Source: Naegleria gruberi
Taxonomy: Eukaryota
NCBI GenBank assembly: GCA_000004985.1
Contig: GG738894.1
DNA: 64,000 nucleotides
Strand: one strand, 5' to 3'
Part shown: in pieces, positions 13,032-49,061 of the stretch
How the letters are laid out: each line of letters begins with the position of its first letter
Position numbering within the stretch: the stretch's first letter is position 1
Translations under genes and position numbers: made by a program
The notes under the pieces: model-generated
Database searches by the model: none
Seen by the model: the letters and a program-made list of their open reading frames with translations, nothing else
What the model was told of the DNA's origin: nothing

Positions 13032-16000
13032 ATGCACAATATTAGTATCTCCTATTGGTGTGTTGTGATATTGTTATTCATCTGTTTTGCACAACCTTTT
13101 TTACTGCAGAGGAGTTGTGTTGTTGTTGCAGAGGAGTATCAATTACATTCCCTGACAGGACATAAAGGAAATGGACAAGATTTTGACAGGACATTCTCTG
13201 CTAAACATGCCTTTCTGGCAGAACCGTGTGGAATTTGTTTTGGACTAAATGATGAAATTTACATTTCAGATTGTGTAAGAAACTATATTTTCAAGATATT
13301 TCCAAATGAAAGTATGATTGTGTTTGGAGGGTTGGGCAGTACGGGATTCAATCAGGATGGTTATGATGTAAAACAAACTCTTTTCGACTCTCCTTCATCA
13401 TTGAGTGTGGCACCTAATGGTGATTTATATATTGCTGATACGAACAATGATAAGATTCGTGTGGTTTCGGCGGAGACAAGATTGGTTTCATCATTGCCAT
13501 TCACTTTCAAACATCCATTGGGAGTGTTTGCTTCCTCTAACAACATGCTTTATATTGCAGGTAAGTTGTCTTTTGCTATTTCATACGAAACCAAAATAGA
13601 TACTGGAAACAATATGATAAAGAAATATGATATTTCCCAAAAGGTATTGACAACTATTGCTGGAGGAACTGGTTATTTGGATGGATCATATGATAATGTT
13701 GATGGAAATTCAATCATTCTTCACTCACCAAAGAATATTCATGTTGTTTCGAGTGGTAAAGATGACACTGTTTATTTCACTGATGAAGAAAGACTAAAAT
13801 TAATTGATAGCAATGGAAAATATCGTGTGATTGCCATTCCTGAACTTAAATCCAATTTGTAAGTGTCCACTGCTTTTTTTATTGTTCATTTTACAATTCA
13901 AATTCACAAAGATATGGAATAGCTGTAACATCAGCGAATGAAATATGGACATCTTCAGATAGACAACATTTCATTCAAATGAATTCCATTGGATCTTCAC
14001 AACCTTCAACAATTATTGGTGAAAAAGATTCTTTTGGATACGAAGGTGATAATTTGATTGATTCCTTTTCGAGTGTGAGATTTTATGAACCTCGATCTTT
14101 GATAGTGAAAGATTCAATTATTCTAGTTATTGATAGGTATAATAATTGTGTGAGAAAGATTGATACACAGAAAAAGACAGTTTCAACATTCTCTGGAGGA
14201 TTAATTAATCATTCATATGGTGAAGACATTCCCAGATTTGAGGTGTCACCACTCAATACATTATATAGACCATTCACATACAAGAATGAGTTGTACTTCA
14301 TAGAGCAAAATTATATAATTAGAAAGGTTTCGAACAATGATGGGCTTATCAAGACAATATTTGGATCGGGTATTCAATTGAGAACTGAAAATTCACCAAC
14401 AAGAGTCTTTAGGTATATCGCAAGTGTTTTCTGTTTTCCAAATGGAGATTTAGTAATTACTAGTTCAAACGAATTCTATATTCTCAATTTAGAAACATTT
14501 ACAATGCAGAAAATTACTAATGTTGGCCCCAAGACAATTCTTTCAATTTCAGCAATAGTTGGCATTGGGAATTCTTTCAAGAATAGCACTATATATTTCT
14601 CCAATGAAGGTACTATTTACAAATATCAGAATGAAAGTGTTCAAGACTCCATGCCAACAGGTTTGGTGCCATCTAACCTTGCAATTTTGAACAATGATTT
14701 ATACTTTTCTACATCAGGATATCTTGTAAAAGTTAATTGGAACGAAACTACTACTTTGATAGCCGTTCCAAGGGGTGTTAACAGGATATCACAAGATTCC
14801 AAAACTGGAAAGATTTATCTTTCCAATACATACAGACTCTACGAAGCAAACGTAAGTAATTTCAGAGTTGAAAAGGTTGCTGGTGTCGATCCATTTGAAT
14901 ATTCTGTTGGGAATAGCATTGATTTTTTTGGATATAGTGGTGAGAATGTGAATGCTAACCAATCGGTAATGTAAGTAGCTCTTTTACAAATGTTATTCGA
15001 AATATTATGTATCAATTAGCTCTGTTTCTTTTATACATGCTGACAATGATAATGTTTATCTCTCTACTGCTTCCTCATACATACGTGTGATATATAATGG
15101 AGTTGTGCGCACTGTTGTGGGAAGTAGTCCATTTTCGAAAAAAACTGGAAGAACCCTATATTCATTTTGTAGAGATCCTATTAATGAAATTATTTACATG
15201 TTGGACAATAATGTGTTGAAGAAGTATGATGAGAAAACAGGAGAAGTTACATCTCTTCTGCCAGCTGTTGAAGTAATTTCATCAAATTCGTTAGTTCAAA
15301 CAAGTGCTTCTCCTTTTTTAGCAATTAAACCAAAGACTGACACGAAAATGATATTCTCAACATTTGATAACATGATATATTTCTCTGATTATTGTAGAAT
15401 ATTACAAATTGACCCAAAAACATTGAAATATCAAAAAGTGGCGGGAAGTATGTGTGGAGATGTAATACCAGATATTCCAGCTATACAATCTCCTTTACCT
15501 ACAAATCCCCCAAAAGGCCTTTCAGTTAATCCTGTAAATGGTGATCTCTACATTAGTTATGCTGATTTTTTTGGAAAGCTTGAAAAGACTTCAGGTATGA
15601 TTCGTGCATTATTTAGGAGTTTTCCATTTAGTCCAATAGAACCAAGTGATGGTCATGTTGGAAATAGCACTTTTATTGGGACGATCTCAACTTCCTATGC
15701 CATTAGTGATCAGACAATTTACTTTAGCACAAATACAAAAATTAGAGTTTTGGAGCTAGCTCAAAATGGTTCATACTACCTCAGAACTATTGTTGGAGAT
15801 GGGAATGGCGGATATTCAGGTGATAATTTACCTGCATTGAGTTCATCTGTACAAAACCCAAAGGCATTCCATGTTAAAAAGAATGGGGATATTGTATTTG
15901 TGGATGAAGGAAATTACCTTATTAGAAAATTTGTAAAAGCAACAGGTCTATTGAAGAATATAGCAGGAAAACCTCGTCAAATGACAGGTTATTATTCAGG

Positions 16001-17422
16001 AGAGTTGAAAGGGCTAGATACAATCTTTATTAATTTGGGATATTCATTTAGTTTCAATGAGAAAACAGAAGAAACTATTTTTTCTGAACACTCAGTTATT
16101 GACACATTCCTTATTAGAAAGCTTTCTCCTATCTGTGAAGGAGGAGCACGCTTCAATTCATTCAATAATACTTGTGACTGTTTGAGTGGATTTTATGGAG
16201 AGAAATGTCAAGCAATTACTTGCAATGGAACAATATCATCAGATGCAACAAGTTGTAATGGAAAGGGAACTTGTGTTGAATTAGATGTTTGTGAATGTTT
16301 GAATGGATTTGAAGGGCAGTATTGTGAAAAATCTATTGACAAGTTGGCAACCGATCAGTCAACAATTTTGATTGTTTCCATTGTCATTCCTATTCTTGGA
16401 GTAGGTCTGATTATCGTGATATTGATTGTAATTATTGTCATAGCATTACTACTTTTCAAAAAGAAGAAATCAAAGGAAATTAATGAAATTGCAACTGCAA
16501 ACATTGTGGAAATGTCAGAATTTCCAAGTAGTTCAATCATTATTTCATCATCACTTGGTTCTGACATGTCAGAAAAGGAAGACATACTTTCTAGGTATAT
16601 TAATATGATTAGAGTTGGGCAAGGCGCATTTGGAAGTGTTTTCAAAGTGACAGATACAAAGAGTGGAAATAAGGTAAAAGCAATCAAGATTGTGAGATTT
16701 GAATCATTCACCGATTTGAACACAATTATGAAAGAAGCATCTCAATTGAGTAATATCAATCATCCAAATATATTGCGAGTGAATGATTATTTCATCACTA
16801 ATGACAATTTGCTTTGTATAGATATGGATTATTATGAGAATGGTGACTTGACAAGGTTTACAAAGAAGGAAATATGTTCTGAAGATATTATTCGCAAGAT
16901 TATGAAACAAATGTTAAGTGCATTGAATTATGTCCACTCAGAATTGTCAATCATTCATAGAGATATCAAACCTTCAAATATTTTTATTCGAAAACTTTCT
17001 GGAAATGACATTGAAGTTGTTTTAGCTGATTTTGGATTGGCTAAAAAGTATCAAGAAATGAAAGGTCAATCCTATGCTGGAACTCCACTTTTTATGAGGT
17101 TTGTTTTATAATTATGCATTAGTTTTAAACTTTTTAAAGTCCTGAAATTGCACTGGGCAGCTCATATTCATTCAATACTGATATTTTCTCACTGGGAGTT
17201 TCGATTTATCAAATCATGACAAAAGACGAAACCATTCCTATTGGAAATTTATTGATGGGAAATCAATTAGCAAATGCAGAAGCCATTCTCACCCAACAAA
17301 TGAAACAGAATACTAGTTACTCGAATGAATTGATTGAAATTGTTATGAAAATGTTGGATAAGAATCAAGAAACTCGATCAAGTGCTGTTCAACTTCTTCA
17401 AATGCCTTATTTCAAACACTAA
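13032..17422 (+). CDS. Receptor-like Ser/Thr protein kinase with an NHL-repeat ectodomain and EGF-like modules
   Basis: Exons are 13032-13560, 13600-13858, 13912-14970, 15020-17098 and 17140-17422, joining track ORFs 12837.., 13979.., 15087.. and 17216... The GT..AG introns are 39, 53, 49 and 41 nt, and all junction phases were checked against the track frames. The N-terminus is signal-like (MHNISISYWCVVILLFICFA). NHL-type motifs recur (LYIADTNNDKIRVV; splicing restores LYIAD|TGNNMIKKYD). EGF-like Cys patterns are present (CDCLSGFYGEKCQ, CECLNGFEGQYCE). A TM helix follows (ILIVSIVIPILGVGLIIVILIVIIVIALLLF). Kinase motifs are GQGAFGSV, AIK, HRDIKPSN, DFG and GTPLFM|SPE, the last restored by the final splice. 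Confidence 0.9.
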
Positions 17423-27301: not shown

Positions 27302-28170
27302 ATGTATATGCATAACTTGAGTAGAGTTATTACAATAATTCCAAATGATTCTGTGGAATTATTGTCGAATAATAGTAGTAATATCACGAATCAAAGTGCT
27401 ATTTCTGCTACTACCATTAATAATGGTGGAAATGTAATAAATAATGATGATTCGGATATTGATACATTGGTGGATGAAATTGTAAATGGAGAACAAGTGG
27501 ATGAATACTTTTTTAATTGTGCAGGTTTAATTTCGAATTTGGAATATGTTAAACAAGTGATAGAAAAGAAGAAAACTGGAAATTTGATTGATTTGGTTTG
27601 TTTCACATATGAATTTTTTATTGGAATGTTTTTGTGTTTTGGATATTTTTGAAAATAATTGAAAAATAGATGGGTAGGAATATATTACATCATGCCTGTA
27701 AATGGGGAAACTTGAATATTGTCCAATATGCCATTTCGAAAGGAGTTTCGGTTAATTTGAAAGATATCCATGGAAACACTCCAATTCACTTTTGTTGTGA
27801 GGAAGGTTATACTGATATTGTGACGTGTTTACTTCATCATCCAAATATTAAAGCAACATTGAAGAATAAGGTAAGAACAATCTCATTTCCATAACTAATA
27901 ATTCTTATGAAACCTTTCGAATAATTCTAAAATTTAGGACGGTGCAACACCAAAGAGAAAGGCTCAATATTCTGGCTATTCAAACGTAGTTCTCTTACTG
28001 GAAAGATATTTGGGCAATATTTATGTAAGTTGTTGAATATTTTCACAAATTTCGTTTCGAACTATTTTCATTAGCTGTTTAAGGAAAATTTGAAAAATCA
28101 AGTAATTGATGTTGAGGAAACTTATTCCAACTACAAATTGAGTGATATTTCAATAAGGATAGTTGATTAA
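27302..28170 (+). CDS. Ankyrin-repeat protein
   Basis: Exons are 27302-27595, 27670-27870, 27938-28024 and 28075-28170, with introns of 74, 67 and 50 nt (GTTTGT, GTAAGA, GTAAGT donors). ANK motifs are GRNILHHACKWGNLNIVQYAISKGVSVNLKDIHGNTPIHFCCEEGYTDIVTCLL and DGATPKRKAQYSGYSNVVLLLERYL. The last intron and exon are less certain; the alternative is a stop at 28034. Confidence 0.78.
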
Positions 28171-28382
28171 AAATTTAATTACCCTTTGATCTTATTTATT
28201 GTAAAAACATTACAATGAAGAGTTTCATTCTCCCAGAAGGGAAATATTGAAAAAATCTTTTTCCACTGACCACAGTATTGTTGTAATCAAGATCAGAGCG
28301 AACTCTAAAAGTCCATTGAATATATCGCCACCACCTTTCATCTTGTGAAAAATAATATCATCACAAAAAAACGAGTTTAGAG

Positions 28383-31300
28383 ATGGTTATTATTCGAAAG
28401 GTTTACTTGTCTAAACCTTGGTGGTTATTTGTGCTACTGTTTAGCTGCATCGTTTTCACAATACACAACAACAACCTTGTTCATTCTAAATCGCCTTCTC
28501 TATACATTCCACAAGTTTCGGATACAAGCCAGACTAATAACATTCCATCTTCTCTATCATCAACAAGTTCCACCTCATCGGATAAATGTAAAACAACTAA
28601 TCCCTTCATATTTTCCCTTCCTACACCATTCTTTCACTGGGCAGAATCGGATTTCAATAACATTGGTTCGAAAGCTTTTTATGAAAATAATTGTTTACAA
28701 ATTGAACAAGTAAATAGATATAATGGATATATTCCATATGATCAAGTCAAGAAATCTCTCACCACCACTTCGACAACATCTAATATTGCAGAATTTTTAA
28801 TCATTGACGATTATTCACTTTTCAAATTGTGGAAAGACAATATTACAAACTTCAAGCTCATTTCACAATTTGCCAAATCAACGAATCTAATTCTAATGTC
28901 CAAGAAGGAAAAACAAATTACATCGATGAGAGATTTGAAAAATAAGAAGGTTGCTGTTTGTCAACATCATTTGGAATATTTGATTTATGAATTATATAAA
29001 CTAGGAATGAGTTTGAGTGATATTAAATATGAGATTGTAAATTATGACCTCATGTATATGAGGGTTTTATATGAAGATATTGATGCATACTTTGTGGATG
29101 ATCGATACATTTTCACACAAGTGAGAAAGACAACTACAACTCTTTATTATCCTAGAGAGTTTAATATTATTGAATCATCACTCAATTATACAAAGGATGG
29201 AATCAACATGTTCAGATATGGTATTATTGTGAAAGATAATCCAAGTGTTAGTGGGCTTGAAGAAATTACAAGAAGATTCTTACTGACACAAACTCAAATG
29301 TACACCTTTTGTAGAGATAATCCTTTGGAGTGTTTTGAAAGATGGGTCGTCTATGATTACATGATTGATAATTTGAACAATTTATTGTGGCCTTCTATTG
29401 ATGGTTTTGGAAATATTAGTAGAGTTTCAATTACAAATTCAATGTCTATATATTTGGGAAGAAATCCAACTTCAACAGAATCAAAAATATTTATCAACCA
29501 GTTTGTCAATTCAACCATAATGGATGAGATTATTTCGAATTGTACTGATAATTTGTGTACAGGCATAGATGGATCTGTATTGAATATTACAGGACTTGCC
29601 TATTCAGATGCAACTCCAACATTTTGTGAGGATTACATATTCCCATATCCACTCTCTTGTAAGAGATATTACTTGTACTTTAGATTGTACTGCTCATTTG
29701 TTCCATTCCTTATTGGTTCCCTAATTAATTTGATATTTGCTGTCATTGTTCCATTCATGAGAAGTGAACACTTGATGAAGCATCGTTTCATAGCCCCATT
29801 TGTAACACCAGTTTGCTTTTCAGGATTTTTACTCTTCTCTGCTATATTATTTTGCAGGTTTTCCTATTTTCCTGAGAATGTCATTTACGGTTTGGCAAGT
29901 GCCTGTATCGTTACAGTTATTATTACACGTTCCATGAATGTGATTCGTTACTTTTATGTGAGAAATATGTTCAAGCTCATGAAAAAGAGGAATAAGAATG
30001 AAAATAATGGATCAGCATACAATTTCTCAATGAAAGAAGATAAGGAAGTATTGGATAGGAATATTCGGTTTCACAGAGTTGCAGCATCCAAATTGGTCTT
30101 TGTTATTATTTGGATAGTACTGGTAGTACTTATTGCTCCGTCATTTTTCATAGCTCAATACTATGCTCCGGAGAATTATATTATAAGAAATGGAATTTCC
30201 ATTATTGTCTATGTATTGGCAACATTTTTCATGGTTTTCCTCTTTATTTTTGATTTGATTGTTAATAGAAAGAGATTGAAAAAGAGAGGTTTCATTTCCT
30301 TCATTCTATTCGACGATCCACTATTGTACAGATTGGAATTATTATTGTGTGGGTTTGAATTGATTTCAATTGTTTGGATTTCTCTCAGTGATTACTATGT
30401 CTATAACATTGCTGCCTTCTCTGCACAAGCTGTTGGTTTCCTTTCTTTGGGCCTTTCTGGTGCTGTAACATGGTCTTATGGATTTGCAGCAGCTGTCATT
30501 CTCTATAGACGTGGCAAGAAGTTTATCATGTCCAAAGTTTATAGAAGAAGAGCAATGAAAAGTAATTCAAACCTCTCTACAGAATTGAGTGGAAGTGCAA
30601 TCCAAGCTGATTTCTTGGAAAAGTTAATTGAAAATGATGATTTTTATTCTCTTCTTGAAGGTATGTTATAGATTGAATAGTTACGAATTTAATGCTTGTA
30701 TAGATTATGCTAAGAAGGAATTCTCATCGGAAAATCTCTTCCTTTACAATGTAAGTTTTCATTAACTCAATCCTCATTTACATGTTCAATCTTTTTGGCA
30801 ATAGATACTGAGACAATATAGAAAAAGGAGAGAACTCTACATTTCGGATTTACTGTTCATTTACAATAATTATGTAAAGAATTATTCACCATTTGAAGTG
30901 AACGTCTCCTCTGAAACTAAGAAGAGCGTTAGAGAAATTCTCTACACTTACCATATGATTGAGTCAGCAACTTCTAAAGACAGATTCTCTAAAAGAATCA
31001 CCCAATTTCCAACAGATATTTTCCCAAATTATGATTCATTCTCGGGAGCTACTCCTTATCAGGCCTTTGATGATGTTCATTCATCGCCAAAACTTGCAAG
31101 TAAGGCGACCATGCCACCTTCATTTCAGAATAACAACTCTCCAATGATGGGTCGATTTAAAGATAGTTTCAGAAAGCTATCATCTGTTTCAGATAGTGAA
31201 GCAAGTAGGGGGGATGATCTTGTTGGAGATGACGCAGATATAGGATCAGATCAAAGCAGAACTCCTAGAAGAAGTACTGTAAGTGGAGGGGGACCAGTTA

Positions 31301-31449
31301 TTCCATTCAATCAAATTCAAGCACTTTACAATGATGTTACACAGAATGTTATGGATACTTTCAGTAGATTATGTGAAACGAGTGAATATCAGCAATGGGA
31401 ATCCCTTAATAATATGGCATTGTTCATCTCCAATAAGGAATTGGCTTGA
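28383..31449 (+). CDS. Seven-transmembrane RGS-domain receptor with an extracellular solute-binding-protein-like domain (7TM-RGS, copy 1)
   Basis: Exons are 28383-30660, 30704-30750 and 30805-31449, with introns of 43 and 54 nt (GTATGT and GTAAGT donors) and phases checked. The N-terminus is signal-like (WWLFVLLFSCIVFTI). The ectodomain carries a type-2 PBP pattern (ITSMRDLKNKKVAVCQHHLEYLIYELYKLGMSLSDIKYEIV...YEDIDAYFVDD). Seven hydrophobic helices follow. The RGS box appears only after splicing (FYSLLE|DYAKKEFSSENLFLYN|ILRQYRKRRELYISDLLFIYNNYVKNYSPFEVN...). Confidence 0.85.
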
Positions 31450-31587: not shown

Positions 31588-31660
31588 CGCCCCACGTGGG
31601 GCTCGAACCCACGACCGTTGGATTAAAAGTCCAACGCTCTACCGACTGAGCTAGCAGGGC
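31588..31660 (-). tRNA. tRNA-Lys-UUU: tRNA-Lys (anticodon UUU)
   Basis: The reverse complement is GCCCTGC TA GCTC AGTCGGTA GAGC G TTGGA CTTTTAA TCCAA CGGTC GTGGG TTCGAGC CCCAC GTGGGGC G. This folds into a full 73-nt cloverleaf. The acceptor stem has two G-U pairs, the T-loop is canonical and CCA is not encoded. Confidence 0.97.
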
Positions 31661-34085: not shown

Positions 34086-37000
34086 ATGCCTCAAAGTAGA
34101 ACAATTACACCAAATTTTCCCTCCATCAACATGTTCCTATTTCATCGAGAACCGTACTTTTTAGATTCGAGTGAGGATAAAAATCGTATTCAAATCAACA
34201 ACAAGAACAATAATAGGGATGATGGAGAAGCAAAAACAATATTAAGGATGAGAAGTTTGGATGAAACTGTGCGGGATGATGATACGCATTCTTCTTCAAT
34301 ACATCATCAAGAAGCCTTGGAACATGTTTTTGGTAAGACAAGAACATCTTCCGCTACAACGAGAACAGTATCACAAAATTCAAGGAATACTAATTATTTT
34401 AATGCTAATACAATAGCAAAAAGCGAGAATAACAACAACTACAAGAAAAACCTTATTAATCACCTGATAATATTATTATTAATTACACTCTTAGTTGTAC
34501 TTCCAACCTTTGTAGAGTGCCTACATCCATTCGCCACATACAATTGGAACAATGATGATGAGATTTGGTTTGCTCAGTCGGCACCATTTTCTGGCCCTAG
34601 TAGCACAATTGGGACAGGTAAGTAGTATCAACATGTAAATGTTCTATAGTGAGTACTTTAATTAGAATTGAGAAATGGAATATTAGCTGCTTTTAATGAA
34701 ATCAACTCTGTTGGAGGTATATTCGGAAAGAAGAAGCTGAGATTGATCAGTATGGACGATGGCTATGAACCACCCAATACAGTTCGCAACATTAATAATT
34801 TTCTGAATGGAAACAAGACAATATTTGGATTTATTGGAGTGGTAGGCTCACCCACTATTCTTGCAGCCTATGATTTGGTAGTGTCGTCTGGTCTTCCTCT
34901 GATTGGAAGTTACACAGGAGCTACATTTTTGAGACAGCCCTTTCATGCAAATTTTGTAAACATTAGACCATCATACTATGATGAAACAGCTGCAATTATG
35001 GATGTATTGATTGGAAAAAACATGGCGAGGAAAATATCAGTCCTTCATCAAGATGATCCTTTTGGAATTAATGGATATGAAGGAGTTAAACGTATACTTG
35101 ACCATATGGGAATTCCAATGTGTTCATCAGGAAGTTATCAAAGAAACACACTCAACGTTGAGGATGCATTCTACAAGATTGCAAAGTGTGATCCAGATGC
35201 TATTGTTGTAGTGGCACTGTATGCACCAGCAACAAAATTCATCAAAATGGTTACCAACTCGACCCTTTACCGAAAGGATATTTTATTTGCAGCAACCTCA
35301 ATAGCCAGCGATTTAATTGTAAAGGAGCTAGGCCCTGAAATTGCTCCAAGAGTTCTGTTTTCACAAGTTGCCCCTTCTCCAACAGATACATCCTCGACCC
35401 TTGTTAAATCTTTCATCACCGCAAGGAAATCAATAGATTCTAATTTTACACAAGGTACATTTATTGAAATAGAGGGATATATTGCTGGAAAAATGACGTA
35501 TCACTTGCTCCACAGAATAATTGGATACATGTCCCCCAGTAACATGCTGACTAATCTTTACTATTCACAAGAAGTTATGTTTGACAATTTGAAATTAGGA
35601 CCATTCTCTTCAGTGTCTGTCAAGGATCCTGTTTACCTTATTCAAACAAATTTTTCCACTCAATTTGATTGCAATCAAGGCTCAAAATCAGTTTGGAGGA
35701 CGAAAGCTGATTCTAACTTGAATTTCTATAATTATGCACCTCCATTTTCATGGTACACTTCTGGCACATGTATTTCAACCCCAGGCGATGTCATCAATCC
35801 AATTTTATTAGCACAACTTGTTTATAACAATCTAGGATCTTCTAATACCTATCTCACTAACGGAATTAAAGCCGCCTTATCCACTGCATATGTCCAGGGA
35901 AGACCTATACATCTACTAACTCGCACTTACTCAGATTTCCAATCTCTTATTTCCACCACTCAAGATCTCGTTGAAAACTACTATATTACTGCATTGGTTG
36001 GATCTTCTGGATTGGGAGAAGTTATTAGTTTAAATACTTCCTCTATTGATCTATTCAGAGAGATATTTAAAACATCCTTCCCACATATTCCTCTGATTGG
36101 AAGTGTAGTTGACAATCCGTCAATCATGTCAACAACTGGTTCGTTGTTTATCCCATCCATGGTAAACATTAGAAGTACAATCATTGAGGAAATTGGAACT
36201 TTGCTTCAACATGCATTCAAAAGAGGAGTTACCAGAATATCAATAGTGAACTGTCCTGCATACGTCCATATCAACAAAATTTTCAAACTTTTAATGTCAA
36301 AATTGCAACTAACAATTGAGAGTGAGCATGGATGCTCAGATACCATTCTTTTCGATAGCATCTCGATAAACCCACAAGTGGTTCTAGTAGCATGTGCATC
36401 TGCCATTCTCCCTGGAACTCTTTTAAAGTTGGATGCAAGTAGTAATCTTAGACAAGATGCATTGTTTTTTGTTTTGGAAGAGAAGAAAAAGCTAGTCTTG
36501 TCAAGCCTTGAGAGTGGACCTAAAGGTGTACAAAGACCTATCTTATATAGTTCTTCATTCCCAGATCCAAAAATCTCGGCCGTAACCATTGTTTCAAGAT
36601 TTAAATCAACTACACCGCCTCTAACAGATCTTTCTGGGTATTATTCTTCTGATTTGGCTCTTGAAGGATATTTTATTGGAGAGTTTGTTGGATCAATATT
36701 GGGATCAGTTGCAGATTCAGCACCCTCAATAACAGGTCAGGCAATTATTGACTTTATATACAAAAGTCAACAGATAGTGGTGAGAGACCAAAAGTATGGA
36801 TACTTTATTAGAGACAAGAAAAATTCATTGTGCAATATTGGGTCGAGAACAAGATTTCTATTCCAGATAAGAAATTGTTCAACCTCAATACTATCAACAA
36901 CAGGTTTCCAACAACAATCATGTTGTTTACAATCTGTTTTAGAGGATTCCAGTACCCTCAACTTTAGAAGACCAATGCAGTTCGTTAGATTCAAACCAGG

Positions 37001-39125
37001 AGACACTGAACAACTTACCATCGAAGCAATAGATGATTTTGCAAAAGGAGTAATATCTTTCATTAATGATATTAATACCATGGGGAAATATTCATTTGCC
37101 TTTCAATTTCTTACTCAAACTTTTAATGGATCTTCTGATATTCAAATGTTAGCTAACGATTTAACCTCTAAACAGCAAATATTTGGTGTTATCGCTCCAG
37201 ATGTAGATTATGACATTGAAATGTTTACGAACATTAGTTTACCAATTATCGGCCCCAAAACTGCTAACATGCAATACAGAAATTACAAAAAAAATGTAAT
37301 TAACATCTACCCTTCCTTAATAGATGAAATCTTCAATTTGGTTGAATTTTTCCTAAAATTTAGTGACGCAATTACTATTGTTTATGAGTCCTTGGATGTT
37401 AATAATTATGCTCAACCCCAGGTATTGAAAACTATCCAAAATATAATAACTAACAGACAACTTTCAAGAGTTTCCCTCACTTGTATGACTTGTGTCAGTG
37501 ATCAAGCAGGGTCAGTAATAATTATGGCAGAAACAGAAGAAATCATTCAGTTTATTAGAGCAAATCAGAAGATAATGAACAGAGTTGGTTTGATTTCAGA
37601 AGCATATGAAGAGCATGATGATCTTAAAGAGTTGTTGTCCCTTCATTCGAATGTTTACATGTCCACTATAGTATCCCTCACAACAGAAATGACGGGATTT
37701 GTGGAATCTGAATTCACAAAGCATTTTCAAGTTTCGTTTCCAAACGACGTGCCAACAATAGAGTCTATAGATGGTTTCGTTTCCTTTTTGTTTGTTGAAA
37801 AAGTATTTGAGTCATTCTTAGATAGAATACAACCAAGACAACAACAGGCTTTCATTGACAAGATATATAGTCTCTCTGTTTTAGATATTGGTGACATTAC
37901 TCTTGGAAAGTTCACCAATACCTGCAATCAAGGAACAAGAAGATTGTACGTTAGCAGATTTTCCCTTAGTAACACAAGTGAAGTCATAACAGTCACAGAA
38001 CCAAACAGTCTTTTCACAATTTCAACATGTGGGTATAACTTCCCTTCCCCTGCAGTCATGGATTATCTTTATTATATTCTAATTTCTATATTGGCTATAA
38101 TTTTTTTGATTGTAGCCATGGGAATATCAGGTTTATTAATTTACAGACAGTATAAGGCTAAAAAGTCACACCTTCATGCTCCAAAAGGAGGAGTCATTTC
38201 TTTTGCGTTTACTGATATTCAAAATTCTACTGTATTGTGGCAATACAATGAGAAAGCAATGAAATTAGCTCTTGCTATACATAACAAGATAGTTAGGGAT
38301 AATATTAAGAAATACAGAGGTTACGAAGTCAAAACTCAAGGGGATTCATTCTTTGTTGCTTTTAGAAAGATAGAAGATTGTATTAATTGGGCATTCTCTG
38401 TTCAAAGTGATTTATTGAAAGCAAATTGGCCATCTGATATTATTACACAGTATGATTGTAGACCAGAATTTGAGGAAGGAACAAAAGTTTTGATTTATTC
38501 TGGTTTGAGGGTAAGAATGGGGCTTCATTGTGGTCAAGCTGAATATATTTTTGATAAGACTGTGAAAAGACCAGATTACTTTGGCAACACCATTAACCAG
38601 ACTGCCAGAATTCAAGCTCTTGCAAGAGGAGGAGAAATATTATGTAGTGAGGCCATGTTACAAGAAAGCAAATATTTATTTAAAATTTCTGGCCCAAGTT
38701 TCGAGGAGGAATTGTCGCATCAATCCTTAAACATACCAAGAAGAAGCTCTGAATCCACATTGTCAAAGAAGCGTAGATCAGTTGTTCCTGGATCCAATCC
38801 AATCTATACAGCCGAAGATTTTGGATATTGCTCCCTAAAAGGTATTAAGGAGGAAGTCAGAGTCTTTACACTTAAAAATAATGATATGAAACTTAGAGTT
38901 TTTCCACCTATTGGAAGATACAAAAATATTGAGGAAACATCGAACAATACCTTGCGATCGATTGCTTCCGTTCCAACATTTGAAACATCAAGTATCAATG
39001 GAGATGATATCATTGTGCACATTCCTGATCAAGCATCAGACAACCAAAAGAGCAAACCTGAACGGTTGAACACTCAAGCGATTGAACTTCCAGAGATTAT
39101 GATTTCTGGTGTAGATAATAAATAA
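34086..39125 (+). CDS. Receptor-type class III adenylyl/guanylyl cyclase with tandem extracellular PBP type 1 (Leu/Ile/Val-binding, ANF-receptor-like) domains
   Basis: Exons are 34086-34617 and 34666-39125, separated by a 48-nt GTAAGT..AG intron in phase 1. The N-terminal anchor is LIILLLITLLVVLPTF. The PBP1 signature is LRNGILAAFNEINSVGGIFGKKKLRLISMDDGYEP...GFIGVVGSPT, with further PBP-like blocks downstream. A single TM follows (YILISILAIIFLIVAMGISGLLIY). The cyclase catalytic core is ISFAFTDIQNST...KTQGDSFFVAF...RVRMGLHCG...DYFGNTINQTARI. Confidence 0.92.
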
Positions 39126-44181: not shown

Positions 44182-45600
44182 ATGAATAGAATGAGTCGGG
44201 CATATTTTCAAATGTGGAGGTGCGAAGGGTTGGGATGTCCTACTACTAATAATCATCAAGCTAGGACGGTGGTATCATCGTCGGGTGGTGAGAAGGATCA
44301 TGATTGGAGGCGCACCAATTCAATATTAAAATTATTTAATCTTTTTGATCGGAATAGTAGCAATAGTAGTGGTGGTTATAAATATTGTAAAAATAATTTT
44401 TCCATGATGATGATAAGTTTTGGAGTGATGATCATGTTGTTAATGTCATTATTGAATAGTACGAGTTTTGTGAATGCTGCTGAAGTGCCATTATTATTGG
44501 GAAGTGGATCTTCACTTGTTGAAGAATTTCATAAAGAAGCAGCAAATTATTTTATTGGATACATGAGAAGAAGTGTCGATGTAATGTATGATGCCTCTGG
44601 ATCGGGGACTGGTGTGAAAAATTTATTTAATTCGAATGGAGTTTATTCATTTGCAGCAACTGATTATGGATTAAAGGCAGCTGACAGAAAAATTAATACA
44701 GATGCAAAAGTGTTGCCAATCATGACAACATATATTTCAATAATTGTATGTAGGATAGCGAAAGAAATTAATATTGAACATAATTAGAGTAATATTGAAG
44801 GATTGAAGGGTGGTTATTCAATTACCTTTTCCCAGGAGGCGCTTGTAGGAATATTTAATGGAACCATTTCCAGATGGAATGACCAAACATTGCAATTGTT
44901 GAATCCATCACTTGCACTCCCAAATACATCAATTTATGTGGTTGTTAGAAATGATTCAAGTGGCACTACTGACATGCTCACTACTGGATTATCATCATTT
45001 TCAAAGGAGTGGGCTTCAACATATGGATCGGGAACTTTAATCAAATGGTCATCCCTCTTATCGAACAGAATAATCTATGCAGAGGATGCCAAAGATGTTT
45101 CTTTCATCATTACTAGCACACCAAACACTATTGGGTACTCTACACCTACTACTTTTGAGCAGCATGCTCCAGCAACTATCAAAACAAAATTAGGAGCTTC
45201 TGTCACTCCCTCATCGAGCTATCTAAAAGGTGTAATAACAAGTGGAATATCATTTAATGAGAATTTTATGCATCCTTCTGTGGTTATAGATAGGCCAGAT
45301 ATTTACCCATTCGTTGGTGTTTCTTATATTGTCTATTTGTCATCCACAATGAATGATTGTGTAAAGGCTACTTATTTGGGCAAGCTTTTGGAATATTATA
45401 CTTCAGATAGAGCTACCAAGATTATTGAGGATGCCGCCTTTTCTTCACTCTTCATTGATGCATCTGTAAAGGAAAGATATATGGGATATTTGAAAAATTT
45501 CACATGTAATGGTAAACCTGTACTGAGTTCCAGTTCCATCACTCAATATTCGATAGCACTTTTAATTTTATTGATTATTCAATTATTATGTATTTTATAA
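44182..45600 (+). CDS. PstS-family (DING-like) phosphate-binding protein, secreted or surface-anchored
   Basis: Exons are 44182 (or 44404)-44745 and 44788-45600, separated by a 42-nt GTATGT..AG intron in phase 0. The signal peptide is best from the ATG at 44404 (MMMISFGVMIMLLMSLLNSTSFVNA). PstS blocks are GSGSS, YDASGSGTGVKNL, FAATD, LVGIFNGTISRWNDQTLQLLNPSLALPNTSIYVVVRNDSSGTT and NTIGY. The C-terminal tail is hydrophobic (YSIALLILLIIQLLCIL). Confidence 0.85.
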
Positions 45601-45610
45601 GTTATATATT

Positions 45611-46624
45611 TTACAAAACCAAAGCAAATAATGCAACGATAACCATAATTAAGGAAACAAGATGCATACTCAATACATTTGCGCTATTAACTCTTGTATC
45701 GAAAGTGGTATATGTTTGTACATAATCCAAATAACTTGTAACATTTGTATAGATACCTCTATTTGAAACCGATCCTGCAGTTCCACATCCGTTAGGTCCA
45801 AAACTAACAATACCAAAAACAATATAATCATTTGTAGAATTAGGAGCTTTGTAAAATAATGGCCCTCCAGAATCACCTTGACAGCTAGTTATCATTAATT
45901 AATTATTGGAATTAATATTTTCAACTTAAATAATGAGGAATAAATACACCTACCTGTCATGTCCTTTTCCATCGCCAGCACAGATTTGTTTTGGTGATGA
46001 AGCATCCAAGTTAATAGCATTACATTTACTCATATCAACCACAGGTACAGTAACTTTCATCAAATCTGTTGGAAGTGGTTGAGTATCAACAGTTGTTCCC
46101 CATCCAGCAACAATAGATGAGAAACCAATAGGAATTGATCCAATTTCCAAATAGGCAGCCTTAGCTGTTTTACCGTCCAATGTCATTGCTGATTCCAATT
46201 CAAGAATAGCTATATCATTTACAACATTATTATTTGAATCACTATATTGAGGATGGACATGAATGTTCTTTATCTTAATATATTTACGTTGTACATCACT
46301 CACAGAATTTCCACCATATACAGCAATCCAAGGTAATGTATCAGGGGGACTGAAACAATGGGCAGCTGAGAGTAAATATTTGGAATTTATAATTGAAGCT
46401 CCACAAGTGTGACTGTAGCTTTTGGCGCTGATATCATCAGCCTGTTGGAGTGAGACAATGAATGGAAATTCGTTGGTGCTTGCCTTTTCACCATTGGACA
46501 CTTTAGAATCTCTCACTTTAAGTTGTTGAGCAGTTGATAATTTAGATATTAAGGCAACAATACTCAACAGAAGGAGGGCAAGAGTCCTCTTCCTTCCACT
46601 GTTACTACTTCCTCCGATCAACAT
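45611..46624 (-). CDS. Trypsin-like (S1) serine protease with a signal peptide and hydrophobic C-terminal tail (copy 1)
   Basis: Exons are 45954-46624 and 45611-45884, separated by a 69-nt intron (45885-45953); the join reads ...[16 protein letters not shown]. The likely start is the ATG at 46624 ([32 protein letters not shown]). The catalytic triad contexts are SAAHC, NDIAIL and GDSGGP. The tail is [16 protein letters not shown]. Confidence 0.92.
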
Positions 46625-46793
46625 TGTGTGAATTTTTATTGTTGTTGAAATAATTAAATTGGAAGTGTGAAGGACAAAACCAATCCAAAGATTACTGTGG
46701 AAGAGGAAATAGAGCGTTCTTTTAGGAGATAATTTGATCATTCTTTTATTATATTTCACAACTATATTGAAGGAACATCATGTGATGACCCAC

Positions 46794-49061
46794 TTAAAAG
46801 TCATATAATTCATTTTCCTTTTGAAGTTCTGTGAGTTTGAGCCACTTTTTGTACTCTGCTGTTTCCTCAAGTCTAGAAAAGGTATCAGATACATTCTTAA
46901 TGACTTCAAAGATGAGGATTTCTCTCAATTCAGAGTAAGGGATTGAGTTTGCAGTTGGTGTTTGCTCACAAACTTGTTTCTTCTCTTCAAACCATTTGTA
47001 AAATGCCTTTTTAGTAGAGTTTGGAAAATTGACCTCAAACTTGGAATAATTTCTCATATAGAGCTCTTCAATTTGGGCAGCCTGTTCGAAAGTTAAGAAT
47101 GAATCTGCAGAATTGACGAGGGAACTTGAACTAAATGTTCGTGAGGTTCTTGAATTGGATGTAGGCAATGAGTCAGTAGATGCTCCCATACTTGATTTCG
47201 ATCTATCATTACCTGAAGATGGGCTTTTCTTATTCTCCAATGATATTAACATTTCATATAACATTACATTTTCAATTGAAAATTCCTTCTTTGCAAACTT
47301 TCTCAATAATTTCATCAAATTCACATCTTCCAATCTGGATTCCAATGTTCTCTTTCCTTTTGGTTCATTGCCTCTGTTTGAAGAAAGTAATTTACTTATT
47401 TTTCTATAAATTTCAATAATCATTGCACTTCCACCAAGAATTAAATAACAAGTCAATGAAAATAGAACTGTCAATACTCCAATGGCAAATTGATTATTAT
47501 ACACTAACAGGGTGATAATTGTGAGTACGAGGAGTAAAAATATGAGTAACAAGTCTATCTTGATATAGAACGGATCATCAAAGAAAAAGTAGTAGTATAT
47601 TCCTTTCTTTTTGATCTTTCTTCGATTTCCAATCATATCCAATAGCAAGAATATTAAACCAATTACAATACATAGAATAATGACAGCACCAAGAGGTGCA
47701 TTTCTGAAATATCCCAAATAGGAAGTAAGGTAAACTTCTTTTTCTAGTATCATGAGAACCGAAGCTCCAAGAGGAATAAAAGGTACTGTTACACTTGTAA
47801 CTAATCCTAACCACTTCTTTCCCAAAAACTTGAAAAATTTGAAATGATCAGATTTTGAAATTATTGTAAACAAATTTCTCAGATAGAAATATCTCACAAC
47901 TGTTATAAAATACAGGAATACAGGATACATTACAACTGCATTGGCTATTCCATTATACAATCGAGTGCAATTGGCAGTAAATACCATAATCTGGAAAATG
48001 TTTCGCATAATAACAAAGAGTGGGCAAAGGTATGGAACAGCCAATCTAATTTTGATGGATTTAGTATTAAATGTCAATAACAGACCAATATAGTAGATAC
48101 ATAGAAAAAAAATTGCATAAACACCTTGGATTTCTTCATATTTAACAGGTTCAAAGGCACAGGTGGAGGATGAACATTCATATACTTCACTGTTCATGTA
48201 AGAAAGGGTGATATTGGAGATTCCAATACTTGAAATTGTTTCGTTTGTATACAATGTGATTTGAGGGTAACTGCTTTGAAGATATTTCACAAAATTATTA
48301 AATTCGAAACTAGAATTTGATAGAGAAATTTTTGATGACCTAAACAGACAATAATCGTGATTCAAATAACATGAAGTACGGTAAGAATCCCCTTTCACTT
48401 CTTCTCTGCACAATCTAATTAATGAATCACATGTTGTAGTGAAGTTGTTAAAATAATCAGTGACACATGAGATTTGGTTTTGATCTAGACTGTTGGAATA
48501 TGAAAAGAACAATGGTGCCAATCTCACAACATTTAAATCTTCAACCTGTAGGTATCTACCTAGCTTGTTATTTCCTCTAATCAACCTCAAAACCTTTGGC
48601 ATTTCTCTGTCAGTTGTTATGATAATTGGACCTTCATTTGATGACCAATAATCAACAAGAATACTTCCAAACACGCAATCAGAGTTGATTCTAACAGCTG
48701 AAAGAATGGAAATAGGTTTGATATCAGCATATGCAGAAGTTGAAATATTATAAATTTCTAATAATGTGTTAAAGGAACTTTCTAATATTTTCAATCGTTG
48801 GTCGGAAACTGAGTAAAAATCAGAATTTGGAGTAAATAGAATGATTCTCTTGTTTTCAAATAGTGATCTTGGTGTAGTAGTTGAATAACCTTTAAGAGCT
48901 ATTGCAATAATAGTTTCATTGGACGAAACTATCTGAATTGGTTGTTGACCATAAATTTCCTTCAATTGACCAATACTCGCTGTCTTTAACCCACAACTAC
49001 AAATCACACAGTGTAGTTGAACTAAACACAACACCAATGAAATCGTAAAGCTGATGTGCAT
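46794..49061 (-). CDS. Seven-transmembrane RGS-domain receptor (7TM-RGS, copy 2; intronless paralogue)
   Basis: The first ATG is at 49061 (MHISFTISLVLCLVQLHCVICS, signal-like); the track start at 49100 is GTG. It has a ~300-aa ectodomain, seven hydrophobic helices and an RGS box (LRKFAKKEFSIENVMLYEML ... YMRNYSKFEVNFPNSTKKAF). It shares family-specific motifs with copy 1: RYFY(V/L)RN, NR(K/R)(R/K)(L/I)KK(R/K)G..F(L/F)FDDP and the C-terminal DTFSRL.ET.EY..W. Confidence 0.85.
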   Translation of the reverse strand: MHISFTISLVLCLVQLHCVICSCGLKTASIGQLKEIYGQQPIQIVSSNETIIAIALKGYSTTTPRSLFENKRIILFTPNSDFYSVSDQRLKILESSFNTLLEIYNISTSAYADIKPISILSAVRINSDCVFGSILVDYWSSNEGPIIITTDREMPKVLRLIRGNNKLGRYLQVEDLNVVRLAPLFFSYSNSLDQNQISCVTDYFNNFTTTCDSLIRLCREEVKGDSYRTSCYLNHDYCLFRSSKISLSNSSFEFNNFVKYLQSSYPQITLYTNETISSIGISNITLSYMNSEVYECSSSTCAFEPVKYEEIQGVYAIFFLCIYYIGLLLTFNTKSIKIRLAVPYLCPLFVIMRNIFQIMVFTANCTRLYNGIANAVVMYPVFLYFITVVRYFYLRNLFTIISKSDHFKFFKFLGKKWLGLVTSVTVPFIPLGASVLMILEKEVYLTSYLGYFRNAPLGAVIILCIVIGLIFLLLDMIGNRRKIKKKGIYYYFFFDDPFYIKIDLLLIFLLLVLTIITLLVYNNQFAIGVLTVLFSLTCYLILGGSAMIIEIYRKISKLLSSNRGNEPKGKRTLESRLEDVNLMKLLRKFAKKEFSIENVMLYEMLISLENKKSPSSGNDRSKSSMGASTDSLPTSNSRTSRTFSSSSLVNSADSFLTFEQAAQIEELYMRNYSKFEVNFPNSTKKAFYKWFEEKKQVCEQTPTANSIPYSELREILIFEVIKNVSDTFSRLEETAEYKKWLKLTELQKENELYDF

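What the first reader, a model, noticed from the sequence alone, without database searches (positions are those of the whole stretch)
28383..31449. Bacterial-type solute-binding ectodomain fused to a 7TM core and a cytosolic RGS box
The spliced model is about 990 aa. It has a signal-like N-terminus and an ectodomain of about 400 aa. The ectodomain segment ITSMRDLKNKKVAVCQHHLEYLIYELYKLGMSLSDIKYEIVNYDLMYMRVLYEDIDAYFVDDRY follows the type-2 periplasmic-binding pattern of NMT1/SsuA-like proteins (DLKGKKVAV...GL...DV..V...AL..G.VDA). Seven hydrophobic helices follow, then an RGS box that becomes visible only after removing two introns (EFSSENLFLYN...). 7TM-RGS proteins are established in plants (AtRGS1), where a receptor directly controls GTP hydrolysis on G-alpha. 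Adding a solute-binding flytrap in front gives class-C-GPCR-like sensing wired to a GAP output. To my knowledge this architecture has not been characterised functionally.
Basis: partly seen in the sequence, partly recalled or inferred. Interest (0 to 1): 0.72.

Follow-up and report, generated by a model that had tools for sequence, protein, structure and literature searches.

The report
Solute-binding ectodomain on a Naegleria 7TM-RGS receptor
This Naegleria gruberi gene encodes a surface receptor that joins a bacterial-type small-molecule-binding clamshell to seven membrane helices and an internal G-protein "off-switch" (RGS) domain, an undescribed variant of a receptor family already known in this amoeba.

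Summary
Exons 28383-30660, 30704-30750 and 30805-31449 (+) give a 989-aa protein. It has a signal peptide, a complete two-lobed type-II periplasmic-binding-protein (PBP) ectodomain of the NMT1/ThiY/SsuA class, seven TM helices with a strong positive-inside bias, and a cytosolic RGS box. Both introns occur at the same positions and phases in the N. fowleri-type orthologue, with different lengths.

The gene is Naegleria gruberi NAEGRDRAFT_71982. The public model fuses it to the upstream ankyrin gene and deletes the signal peptide, which is probably an annotation error.

7TM-RGS proteins are a published, expanded Naegleria family (28 in N. fowleri, several shown to be GAPs). A second paralogue lies in this window. 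Only EGF, lectin and GPS ectodomains are described for that family. An exhaustive profile search found the PBP-7TM-RGS combination only in Naegleria orthologues. The nearest ectodomain relatives are bacterial ABC solute-binding proteins and single-pass PBP-cyclase receptors.

The most likely function is a ligand-regulated receptor-GAP, but the ligand, the coupling and the GAP activity are all untested. It is not a class C GPCR. I rate it a new variant of a known kind, of moderate interest.

The parts
28383..30660 (+). Exon 1 (residues 1-759 plus 1 nt): signal peptide, ectodomain, 7TM core and the start of the RGS box
   Evidence: ORF list and splice reconstruction. It differs from a second N. 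gruberi strain at 16 codons of the unspliced ORF, 12 synonymous and 4 non-synonymous.
28383..28487 (+). Signal-peptide-like N-terminus (residues 1-35, MVIIRKVYLSKPWWLFVLLFSCIVFTIHNNNLVHS)
   Evidence: Hydropathy peak at residues 7-33. It is the first ATG after an in-frame stop. The public model removes it.
28587..29660 (+). Type-II periplasmic-binding-protein ectodomain, NMT1/ThiY/SsuA class (residues ~69-426). It includes the subfamily motif FCRDNPLEC...NLLWPSIDGFG and the juxtamembrane FCEDYIFPYPLSC.
28860..29093 (+).
   Evidence: The same profile region is hit in P0001, P0002 and P0003.
29682..30503 (+). Seven-TM core. TM1 29682-29756, TM2 29790-29864, TM3 29877-29951, TM4 30066-30140, TM5 30186-30260, TM6 30321-30389, TM7 30411-30503.
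   Evidence: Hydropathy and K/R distribution. It shares the motifs IRYFYVRN and NRKRLKKRGFxxFxxFDDP with the in-window paralogue. No Pfam or PDB GPCR hit.
30661..30703 (+). Intron 1 (43 nt, phase 1, GTATGT..ATAG)
   Evidence: A homologous intron of 114 nt lies at the same codon in N. fowleri-type locus L004.
30704..30750 (+). Exon 2 (47 nt), encoding (D)YAKKEFSSENLFLYN, the RGS alpha3/alpha4 G-alpha-contact motif
   Evidence: Exon 2 is also 47 nt in L004.
30751..30804 (+). Intron 2 (54 nt, phase 0, GTAAGT..ATAG, contains an in-frame stop)
   Evidence: The homologous intron in L004 is 66 nt.
30805..31449 (+). Exon 3 (residues 776-989 plus the stop codon)
30615..30963 (+). RGS box, N-terminal two-thirds (residues 745-828, helices ~1-6; this span includes both introns)
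   Evidence: Pfam RGS 27.6 bits. The PDB profile search hits RGS5, RGS18, RGS8 and RGS10, best E 6.6e-7.
30964..31296 (+). 111-aa Ser/Asp/Pro-rich insert inside the RGS box (residues 829-939)
   Evidence: Composition. It is poorly conserved in the orthologues and absent at this position in the paralogue.
31297..31404 (+). RGS box, C-terminal helices (residues 940-975, IPFNQIQALYNDVTQNVMDTFSRLCETSEYQQW)
   Evidence: It matches the contiguous RGS C-terminus of the paralogue at 46794-49100 (E 7e-7). It is nearly invariant in the orthologues. With the insert removed, the Pfam alignment extends to profile position 98 of 117.

Best explanation
This is the Naegleria gruberi gene NAEGRDRAFT_71982, correctly modelled as three exons and 989 aa. 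It encodes a plasma-membrane receptor-GAP.

Shown here:
- A cleavable signal peptide puts a complete two-lobed NMT1/ThiY/SsuA-type solute-binding domain outside the cell.
- That domain is joined to TM1 by a short, invariant cysteine-containing linker.
- The seven-helix core belongs to the Naegleria 7TM-RGS family.
- The cytosolic tail carries an RGS box that keeps the G-alpha-contact residues.

Inferred, not shown:
- A small molecule closes the clamshell.
- That change passes through the 7TM bundle.
- It alters how well the tethered RGS box accelerates GTP hydrolysis on G-alpha subunits, either through access and orientation or through internalisation as proposed for AtRGS1. External chemistry would then set the level of G-alpha-GTP.

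The ligand is unknown. The closest structural relatives bind thiamin, pyrimidine precursors, PQQ, taurine and sulfonates.

My confidence in the architecture is about 0.9. My confidence in the ligand-gated GAP mechanism is about 0.5.
For: Gene model:
- Splicing restores the frame, and the retained introns contain stops.
- Intron positions and phases, and the 47-nt exon 2, are conserved in the N. fowleri-type locus. Intron lengths differ (43 vs 114 nt, 54 vs 66 nt).
- The N. lovaniensis and N. fowleri proteins are colinear across the junctions.
- Two N. gruberi strains differ in the unspliced exon-1 ORF at 12 synonymous and 4 non-synonymous codons.

Ectodomain:
- Pfam NMT1 is above its cut-off.
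- The same profile region is hit in all orthologues.
- An exhaustive profile search of 1.84 billion representatives returned, beyond the orthologues, ten weak hits (E 1e-6 to 8e-4). Eight pass Pfam's NMT1 cut-off at 53-151 bits. The other two are short fragments with no Pfam hit.
- hhalign gives 99.4%, E 1.7e-21.

Topology: seven hydrophobic segments, 27 K/R on predicted inside loops against 0 on the outside loops, and six sequons and eight invariant Cys in the ectodomain.

RGS box:
- Pfam RGS is above its cut-off in the target and in N. lovaniensis.
- PDB hits are all RGS domains.
- EFSSEN, FEVNV and MDTFSRL correspond to RGS4 E87/N88, N128 and D163/R167. That numbering is from my own knowledge of Tesmer et al. 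1997.

Family context:
- N. fowleri has 28 7TM-RGS proteins. Isolated RGS domains of three of them show GAP activity on Nf G-alpha subunits, including self-activating ones (PMC9283941).
- A paralogue in the window shares the 7TM motifs.
Against: - No transcript data were available, so the start site and splicing rest on comparative evidence.
- The N-lobe pocket motifs of the PBP family (QLxWxxQxQFAGF and GGP) are replaced in all three Naegleria orthologues. These loops have pLDDT below 50, so ligand binding could be altered or lost.
- The AF2 fold depends partly on an alignment that includes NMT1 proteins. A 3-sequence alignment gave pLDDT 33.
- The last third of the RGS box adds no Pfam score.
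- The 7TM core matches no known GPCR family.
- No GAP assay exists for this protein, and no 7TM-RGS protein in any organism has a proven ligand-binding mechanism.
Confidence: 0.6

Rival explanations
1. Degenerate flytrap. The PBP ectodomain has lost small-molecule binding. It serves as a structural, dimerisation or adhesion module on a constitutive membrane-anchored GAP.
For: The N-lobe motifs that usually line the pocket in NMT1/SsuA-type binding proteins have diverged in all three orthologues, and they are modelled with low confidence. Pfam NMT1 scores are marginal, between 14.5 and 24.4 bits.
Against: The whole two-lobe domain is retained colinearly. The subfamily-specific motif CRDNPxxC...WPSxDGxG is invariant from bacteria to Naegleria. 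The ectodomain is 47% identical between distant Naegleria species. Substitutions between strains are mostly synonymous.
Confidence: 0.2
2. GPCR with a built-in brake. The 7TM core acts as a ligand-activated exchange factor for slow-exchanging G-alpha subunits, and the tethered RGS box only sharpens signal termination.
For: Naegleria has both slow-exchanging and self-activating G-alpha subunits, and both types interact with 7TM-RGS RGS domains (PMC9283941).
Against: No GPCR-family signature is detectable in the 7TM core. No 7TM-RGS protein has been shown to have GEF activity; this is my reading of the literature.
Confidence: 0.13
3. The public fused model is right. The protein begins with the upstream ankyrin repeats (27302 onward) and lacks a signal peptide (XP_002672888.1, 1161 aa).
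For: It is the deposited annotation, and the proposed junction 28142-28515 has GT..AG ends.
Against: - That 'intron' is 374 nt with a weak GTGATA donor. Neighbouring introns are 43-71 nt, and the four with confirmed boundaries have GTAAGT-like donors.
- The ankyrin reading frame has its own stop at about 28168.
- The N. fowleri and N. lovaniensis orthologues have no ankyrin part, and the N. fowleri upstream neighbour has no ankyrin Pfam hit.
- Without a signal peptide, a Cys- and sequon-rich PBP would be cytosolic and the RGS box extracellular.
Confidence: 0.04
4. Truncated product. The real protein ends at the stop in intron 1 (762 aa: PBP + 7TM), and the RGS-like exons are a decaying remnant.
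For: Prokaryote-style ORF callers report the 762-aa product. No RNA evidence was available here.
Against: The downstream exons are conserved in three species and keep invariant RGS contact motifs. Intron positions are conserved. The C-terminal 164 aa differ by one residue between N. gruberi strains.
Confidence: 0.03

Closest known systems
Naegleria 7TM-RGS proteins (Nf 7TM RGS1-4 and 24 others; Bosch et al., J Biol Chem 2022, PMC9283941)
   Same: Same genus and same layout: extracellular N-terminus, seven TM helices and a C-terminal RGS box. A paralogue in this window (46794-49100, minus strand) shares the TM3-end and third-intracellular-loop motifs and the RGS C-terminus. RGS domains of three N. 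fowleri members show GAP activity on Nf G-alpha subunits.
   Different: The published ectodomains are EGF-like repeats, lectin-like domains and GPS motifs (adhesion-like). This one has a small-molecule-type NMT1/ThiY periplasmic-binding fold and an RGS box interrupted by a 111-aa insert. This protein has no biochemical data.
Arabidopsis AtRGS1 (plant 7TM-RGS)
   Same: Works like it in outline: a 7TM protein with a cytosolic RGS box that acts as a receptor-GAP for self-activating G-alpha.
   Different: From my own knowledge, AtRGS1 has only a short extracellular N-terminus and no recognised ligand-binding domain. Homology of the 7TM cores was not tested here. The two lineages are very distant.
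ThiY (3ix1), the thiamin-binding protein 4nmy, SsuA, TauA and PqqT: NMT1/SsuA-class ABC-transporter solute-binding proteins
   Different: It is not a free or lipid-anchored partner of an ABC permease; it is covalently fused to a 7TM-RGS transducer. The N-lobe pocket motifs have diverged. It has extra cysteines, shared only with eukaryote-like receptor versions.
Single-pass PBP-cyclase receptors: P0004 (NMT1 + TM + Guanylate_cyc), the Peripla_BP_6-cyclase at 34668-39125 in this window, and trypanosomatid receptor adenylate cyclases
   Same: They use the same strategy of placing a bacterial-type binding protein outside a signalling output. P0004, P0006 and P0010 share with the target the extra cysteines at the N-terminus, in 'ECL' and in the juxtamembrane 'FCxD'. 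The P0004 cyclase is 37% identical to the N. gruberi cyclase in this window.
   Different: They have one TM helix and a cyclase output rather than 7TM and RGS. The source organism of P0004 and its relatives is unknown (metagenome or SRA assemblies).
Class C GPCRs (mGluR, CaSR, GABA-B)
   Same: Analogous logic: a clamshell binding domain sits on a 7TM bundle.
   Different: Class C receptors use a type-I PBP (ANF_receptor), usually a Cys-rich NCD3G spacer, and a 7tm_3 core that activates G proteins. Here the PBP is type II, the linker is about 12 residues, the 7TM core is unrelated by sequence, and the output is an RGS (GAP) domain.

Membership tests
7TM-RGS receptor-GAPs (Naegleria / AtRGS1 type) | Seven transmembrane helices N-terminal to the RGS box, with the N-terminus outside and the C-terminus inside | tested here: met
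   Seven hydropathy peaks between residues 433 and 707. K+R counts are 3, 9, 6 and 9 on the predicted inside loops and tail, and 0, 0 and 0 on the outside loops. No dedicated topology predictor was available.
7TM-RGS receptor-GAPs (Naegleria / AtRGS1 type) | RGS domain passing the family threshold | tested here: met
   PF00615 scores 27.6 bits against a cut-off of 23.9, and 33.3 bits in the N. lovaniensis orthologue. PDB profile hits are exclusively RGS domains, best E 6.6e-7.
7TM-RGS receptor-GAPs (Naegleria / AtRGS1 type) | G-alpha-contact residues of the RGS box (RGS4 E87, N88, N128, D163, R167) | tested here: met
   EFSSEN, FEVNV and MDTFSRL are invariant in the target, two orthologues and the paralogue, and the first two align with RGS5 and RGS16. 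RGS4 numbering is from my own knowledge. The C-terminal motif was placed by inspection and by the paralogue match, not by an HMM.
7TM-RGS receptor-GAPs (Naegleria / AtRGS1 type) | Sequence relatedness of the 7TM core to other family members | tested here: met
   BLASTP to the in-window paralogue gives E 4e-13 across TM3-TM7 and into the RGS box.
7TM-RGS receptor-GAPs (Naegleria / AtRGS1 type) | GAP activity on a G-alpha subunit | not testable with these tools
   Needs recombinant protein. It has been shown for three N. fowleri family members (PMC9283941).
NMT1/ThiY/SsuA type-II periplasmic binding proteins (Pfam PF09084) | Profile match above the curated threshold | tested here: met
   22.1 bits against a cut-off of 20.5 for the target, and 24.4 bits for the strain variant P0001. 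The orthologues fall below it at 14.5 and 17.9 bits. hhalign to an alignment of bona fide members gives 99.4%, E 1.7e-21 over 261 columns.
NMT1/ThiY/SsuA type-II periplasmic binding proteins (Pfam PF09084) | Two alpha/beta lobes with the type-II fold | tested here: met
NMT1/ThiY/SsuA type-II periplasmic binding proteins (Pfam PF09084) | Intact ligand pocket | tested here: inconclusive
   The C-lobe and subfamily motifs are invariant, but the N-lobe motifs (QLxW..QFAGF, GGP) are replaced and poorly modelled. Ligand-contact residues of the templates could not be mapped.
NMT1/ThiY/SsuA type-II periplasmic binding proteins (Pfam PF09084) | Works with an ABC (NitT/TauT-type) permease | tested here: not met
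   The domain is fused in one reading frame to a 7TM core. Bacterial relatives sit in ABC operons (L002).
Class C GPCRs | Type-I PBP (ANF_receptor) flytrap, NCD3G spacer and 7tm_3 core | tested here: not met
   None of the three Pfam families matches at E up to 10. The flytrap is type II, and the linker to TM1 is about 12 residues.

The most novel reading that the evidence does not exclude
A bacterivorous amoeba has placed a bacterial-type vitamin/sulfonate-class binding protein on a receptor-GAP. It would then sense a specific bacterial or soil metabolite directly, for example a thiamin or pyrimidine precursor, PQQ, taurine or a sulfonate. Ligand binding would switch off (or on) GTP hydrolysis on self-activating G-alpha subunits and so steer chemotaxis or feeding. 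This would be the first 7TM-RGS receptor with a defined, structurally tractable ligand-binding domain. The module would have been exchanged between cyclase and RGS receptor outputs within Discoba.
Probability: 0.25. Interest if true: 0.75.

Novelty: new variant of a known kind. Interest (0 to 1): 0.55.

Why it matters
How 7TM-RGS proteins sense anything is still unresolved. AtRGS1 has no recognised ligand-binding domain, and the Naegleria family has adhesion-like ectodomains with unknown cues. A member with a classical small-molecule clamshell, whose relatives have solved ligand complexes, makes "ligand-regulated GAP" signalling directly testable by ectodomain ligand screens, GAP assays and conformational coupling experiments. 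A conserved orthologue exists in the pathogen N. fowleri (FDP41_006101). The locus also shows that eukaryotic receptors reuse bacterial-type binding proteins across different outputs (cyclase, RGS). Finally, it exposes a probable error in the reference gene model.

Tried and rejected
- The search for homologous proteins with the ectodomain alignment and with the 7TM+RGS segment returned nothing, not even the self-matches seen. I treat both as tool failures, not as evidence of absence.
- The ectodomain profile found nothing by sequence in the PDB. Neither did the 7TM profile.
- Pfam found no GPCR family in the isolated 7TM core.
- AF2 with only three orthologues was unusable at pLDDT 33.
- The afdb50 fold library was unavailable.
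- Anantharaman et al. 2011 (PMC3396428), the paper most likely to list RGS architectures in Naegleria, is not held. Prior mention of this architecture there cannot be excluded.
- The metagenome scan with P0004 gave only bacterial loci, so the source organism of the PBP-cyclase relatives stays unknown.
- NCBIfam gave no ligand-specific family for the bacterial relatives. All matches were far below their cut-offs.
- The ectodomain of the in-window paralogue is not detectably NMT1-like.
- Removing the RGS insert did not raise the Pfam score (32.1 vs 32.0 bits).
- Rejected: class C GPCR membership, the ankyrin-fused public model, and the truncated 762-aa product.
Full report
**What is there.**
The window is AT-rich eukaryotic DNA of about 33% GC, and its first 9,860 bases are N. 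A 762-aa ORF runs from 28383 to 30671 on the + strand. A 183-aa ORF ends at 31449. Removing 30661-30703 (43 nt, GTATGT..ATAG) and 30751-30804 (54 nt, GTAAGT..ATAG) joins them into a 2,970-nt frame of 989 aa. If either intron is kept, stops remove everything downstream.

**Identity.**
The protein is 99% identical to a 762-aa ORF on an environmental contig (P0001). It is 46% identical to Naegleria lovaniensis C9374_012153, annotated 'RGS domain-containing protein'. Cluster look-up places it with N. gruberi NAEGRDRAFT_71982 (XP_002672888.1, UniProt D2VSL5, 'predicted protein'). The look-up also finds the N. fowleri orthologue FDP41_006101.

The public N. gruberi model is 1,161 aa because it joins the upstream ankyrin-repeat gene (27302 onward) to this gene. 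It does so through a 374-nt 'intron' (28142-28515, GTGATA..AAG) that deletes the ATG and the signal peptide. I consider that an annotation error, for four reasons:
- The ankyrin frame has its own stop.
- Neighbouring introns are 43-71 nt, and the four with confirmed boundaries have GTAAGT-like donors.
- Neither orthologue has an ankyrin part, and the N. fowleri upstream gene has no ankyrin Pfam hit.
- A sequon- and cysteine-rich binding domain needs a signal peptide to reach the outside.

**Introns.**
No transcript data could be consulted, so I used comparative evidence. In an N. fowleri-type contig (L004) the coding sequence is interrupted at exactly the same two places. The first interruption follows ...DDFYSLLE plus one base and is 114 nt (GTATGT..CTAG). 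A 47-nt exon follows, encoding DYCKKEFSSENLYLYT. Then comes a 66-nt intron (GTACGT..AAAG). L004 also has one extra 49-nt intron inside TM7. Position, phase and exon-2 length are the same, while intron length and sequence differ. That pattern is what real introns show.

Two N. gruberi strains differ in the unspliced exon-1 ORF at 16 codons, 12 synonymous and 4 non-synonymous. One of the synonymous differences falls in the intron-1 read-through. The C-terminal 164 residues differ at one position. This indicates purifying selection along the whole product.

**Ectodomain.**
Pfam NMT1/THI5-like (PF09084) matches residues 160-237 at 22.1 bits against a cut-off of 20.5. The same profile region is hit in P0001 (24.4 bits), in the N. 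fowleri-type ORF (17.9 bits) and in N. lovaniensis (14.5 bits). NCBIfam SsuA_fam matches at E 4e-4. These scores are marginal, so I tested the assignment independently.

A profile of the three orthologous ectodomains was run without a word filter against 1.84 billion cluster representatives. It gave only 12 hits at E up to 1e-3. Two are the Naegleria orthologue clusters and ten are weak hits (E 1e-6 to 8e-4). Eight of those ten pass Pfam's NMT1 cut-off at 53-151 bits. The other two (P0005, P0011) are short fragments with no Pfam hit. hhalign of the Naegleria profile against seven of them gives 99.4% probability, E 1.7e-21 over 261 columns.

A global alignment is colinear over the entire binding protein, including the first beta-alpha-beta unit. 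It shows a shared subfamily motif, YCRDNPxxC...NxLIWPSxxGxG, which appears in the target as FCRDNPLEC...NLLWPSIDGFG. That subfamily's solved relatives are 4nmy, ThiY 3ix1, THI5 and 3qsl.

Two caveats apply. The model inherits information from family members in its alignment. The N-lobe motifs that normally line the pocket (QLxW..QFAGF, GGP) are replaced in all Naegleria orthologues and are modelled with low confidence.

**Relatives of the ectodomain.**
Four of the weak hits are bacterial lipoprotein-type binding proteins. One metagenomic relative sits in a typical ABC operon (L002). Others look eukaryotic:
- P0004 has a signal peptide, NMT1, one TM helix and a class III cyclase.
- P0006 and P0010 have NMT1 plus a TM helix.
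- P0009 has NMT1, a Cys-rich stretch and a TM helix.

These receptor-type versions share with the target three cysteines that most of the bacterial relatives lack: one N-terminal, one in 'ECL', and one in the juxtamembrane 'FCxD'. The TM-cyclase part of P0004 is 37% identical (E 1e-41) to a PBP-cyclase encoded in this same window. This suggests, but does not prove, that one receptor-adapted NMT1 module has been shuffled between cyclase and 7TM-RGS outputs in Naegleria-like eukaryotes. The PBP-7TM-RGS combination itself was found only in the Naegleria orthologues.

**Membrane core.**
Hydropathy gives a signal-like segment (residues 7-33) and seven hydrophobic segments between residues 433 and 707. 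TM1-7 map to residues 434-458, 470-494, 499-523, 562-586, 602-626, 647-669 and 677-707. The predicted cytosolic loops and proximal tail then carry 3, 9, 6 and 9 Lys+Arg, and the three outer loops carry none. Six N-x-S/T sequons and eight cysteines invariant across species lie in the ectodomain. The last conserved PBP element (FCEDYIFPYPLSC, invariant apart from two conservative substitutions) is only about 12 residues from TM1. The clamshell therefore sits directly on the bundle.

The core matches no Pfam or PDB GPCR family. It does share IRYFYVRN at the TM3 end, and NRKRLKKRGFxxFxxFDDP in the third cytosolic loop, with a paralogue in the window.

**RGS box.**
Pfam RGS matches residues 745-823 (27.6 bits, cut-off 23.9, profile positions 2-82 of 117). 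PDB searches return only RGS domains: RGS5, RGS18, RGS8, RGS10, RGS16 and RGS17. The missing last third lies after a 111-aa Ser/Asp/Pro-rich insert (residues 829-939).

The segment IPFNQIQALYNDVTQNVMDTFSRLCETSEYQQW is nearly invariant in the orthologues. It matches (E 7e-7) the C-terminus of the paralogue at 46794-49100, where it follows the EVN box after only about 30 residues. With RGS4 numbering recalled from the RGS4-Gi-alpha1 structure (my own knowledge), EFSSEN supplies E87 and N88, FEVNV supplies N128, and MDTFSRL supplies D163 and R167.

The target's insert falls in the alpha6-alpha7 loop and the paralogue's in the alpha4-alpha5 loop. I infer that both lie at the end of the helical bundle away from the G-alpha interface. 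The box therefore looks GAP-competent. The Pfam score does not rise when the insert is removed, so the assignment of the last helices rests on motif and paralogue evidence.

**What is known.**
- N. gruberi has one of the largest RGS and G-alpha repertoires of any eukaryote (PMC3971589, PMC8584482).
- Bosch et al. 2022 (PMC9283941) catalogued 28 7TM-RGS proteins in N. fowleri.
- They described ectodomains with EGF-like repeats, lectin-like domains and GPS motifs.
- They showed that isolated RGS domains of three members accelerate GTP hydrolysis on Nf G-alpha subunits, including self-activating ones.
- They stated that it remains to be determined whether extracellular cues alter GAP activity.

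Four full-text searches found no mention of a periplasmic-binding or NMT1-type ectodomain on a 7TM-RGS protein. The paper most likely to list such architectures (Anantharaman et al. 2011) could not be read.

**Mechanism.**
The architecture is shown. The rest is inferred:
- A ligand closes the clamshell.
- The short rigid linker passes this change to the 7TM bundle.
- The GAP output on G-alpha changes, either directly or through internalisation as proposed for AtRGS1.

The rivals are a degenerate, non-binding flytrap, a GPCR-like exchange factor with a tethered brake, and two gene-model alternatives. They are listed with their tests. The protein fails every defining feature of class C GPCRs, so that resemblance is functional analogy only.

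**Verdict.**
The finding is a new ectodomain variant within a known, lineage-expanded receptor family. It occurs in an organism that routinely fuses bacterial-type binding proteins to signalling outputs: this window alone also holds a PBP-cyclase and a PstS-like surface protein. It is not categorically new. It is, however, the most tractable entry point so far for testing ligand control of a receptor-GAP.

Noticed in passing
window 46794-49100 (-): A second 7TM-RGS paralogue, encoded by a single intron-less 768-aa ORF. It has a signal-like N-terminus, a ~330-aa Cys-rich ectodomain with no Pfam hit and no detectable NMT1 similarity, and seven TM helices sharing the VRYFYLRN and NRRKIKKKGxxxFFFDDP motifs. 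Its RGS box is interrupted by a Ser-rich insert between helices 4 and 5, so Pfam misses it entirely.
   Followed up: partly
window 27302-28515 (+): The public N. gruberi model XP_002672888.1 (1,161 aa) fuses an ankyrin-repeat gene to the receptor gene. It does so through a 374-nt GTGATA..AAG 'intron' (28142-28515) that removes the receptor's start codon and signal peptide. This is a probable annotation error. The ankyrin gene has its own stop at about 28168.
   Followed up: yes
window 34668-39125 (+): A 1,485-aa ORF with Peripla_BP_6/ANF_receptor, the Pfam 'adenylate cyclase periplasmic binding protein-like' domain (PF25493), one TM helix and a class III cyclase. It is a receptor-type cyclase with type-I binding-protein ectodomains, 3 kb downstream of the target.
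   Followed up: partly
window 44182-45600 (+): Two adjacent ORFs that together match the PstS-like PBP_like_2 family (profile positions 12-98 and 107-267). They end in a hydrophobic tail and probably form one intron-split gene for a surface phosphate-binding-type protein.
   Followed up: no
window 31588-31660 (-): tRNA-Lys (anticodon TTT), 140 nt downstream of the receptor's stop codon on the opposite strand.
   Followed up: no
window 15087-17111 (+) and 45950-46759 (-): An EGF-repeat plus protein-kinase receptor-like ORF and a secreted trypsin-like protease ORF. The region is dense in surface and signalling genes.
   Followed up: no
L003 2805-5651: In a bacterial metagenome contig, an NMT1-type binding-protein gene lies immediately upstream of a membrane sensor that I read, by eye only, as having an extracellular domain, a HAMP region and a SpoIIE/PP2C phosphatase. 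It is a possible prokaryotic case of this binding-protein family feeding a signalling protein.
   Followed up: no
L004 4296-4344: The N. fowleri-type orthologue has an extra 49-nt intron inside TM7 that is absent from N. gruberi, so intron gain or loss has occurred within the genus.
   Followed up: partly
(tool behaviour): Two of the three word-indexed homology searches returned no hits at all, even though exact self-matches exist in that database (P0001).
   Followed up: no
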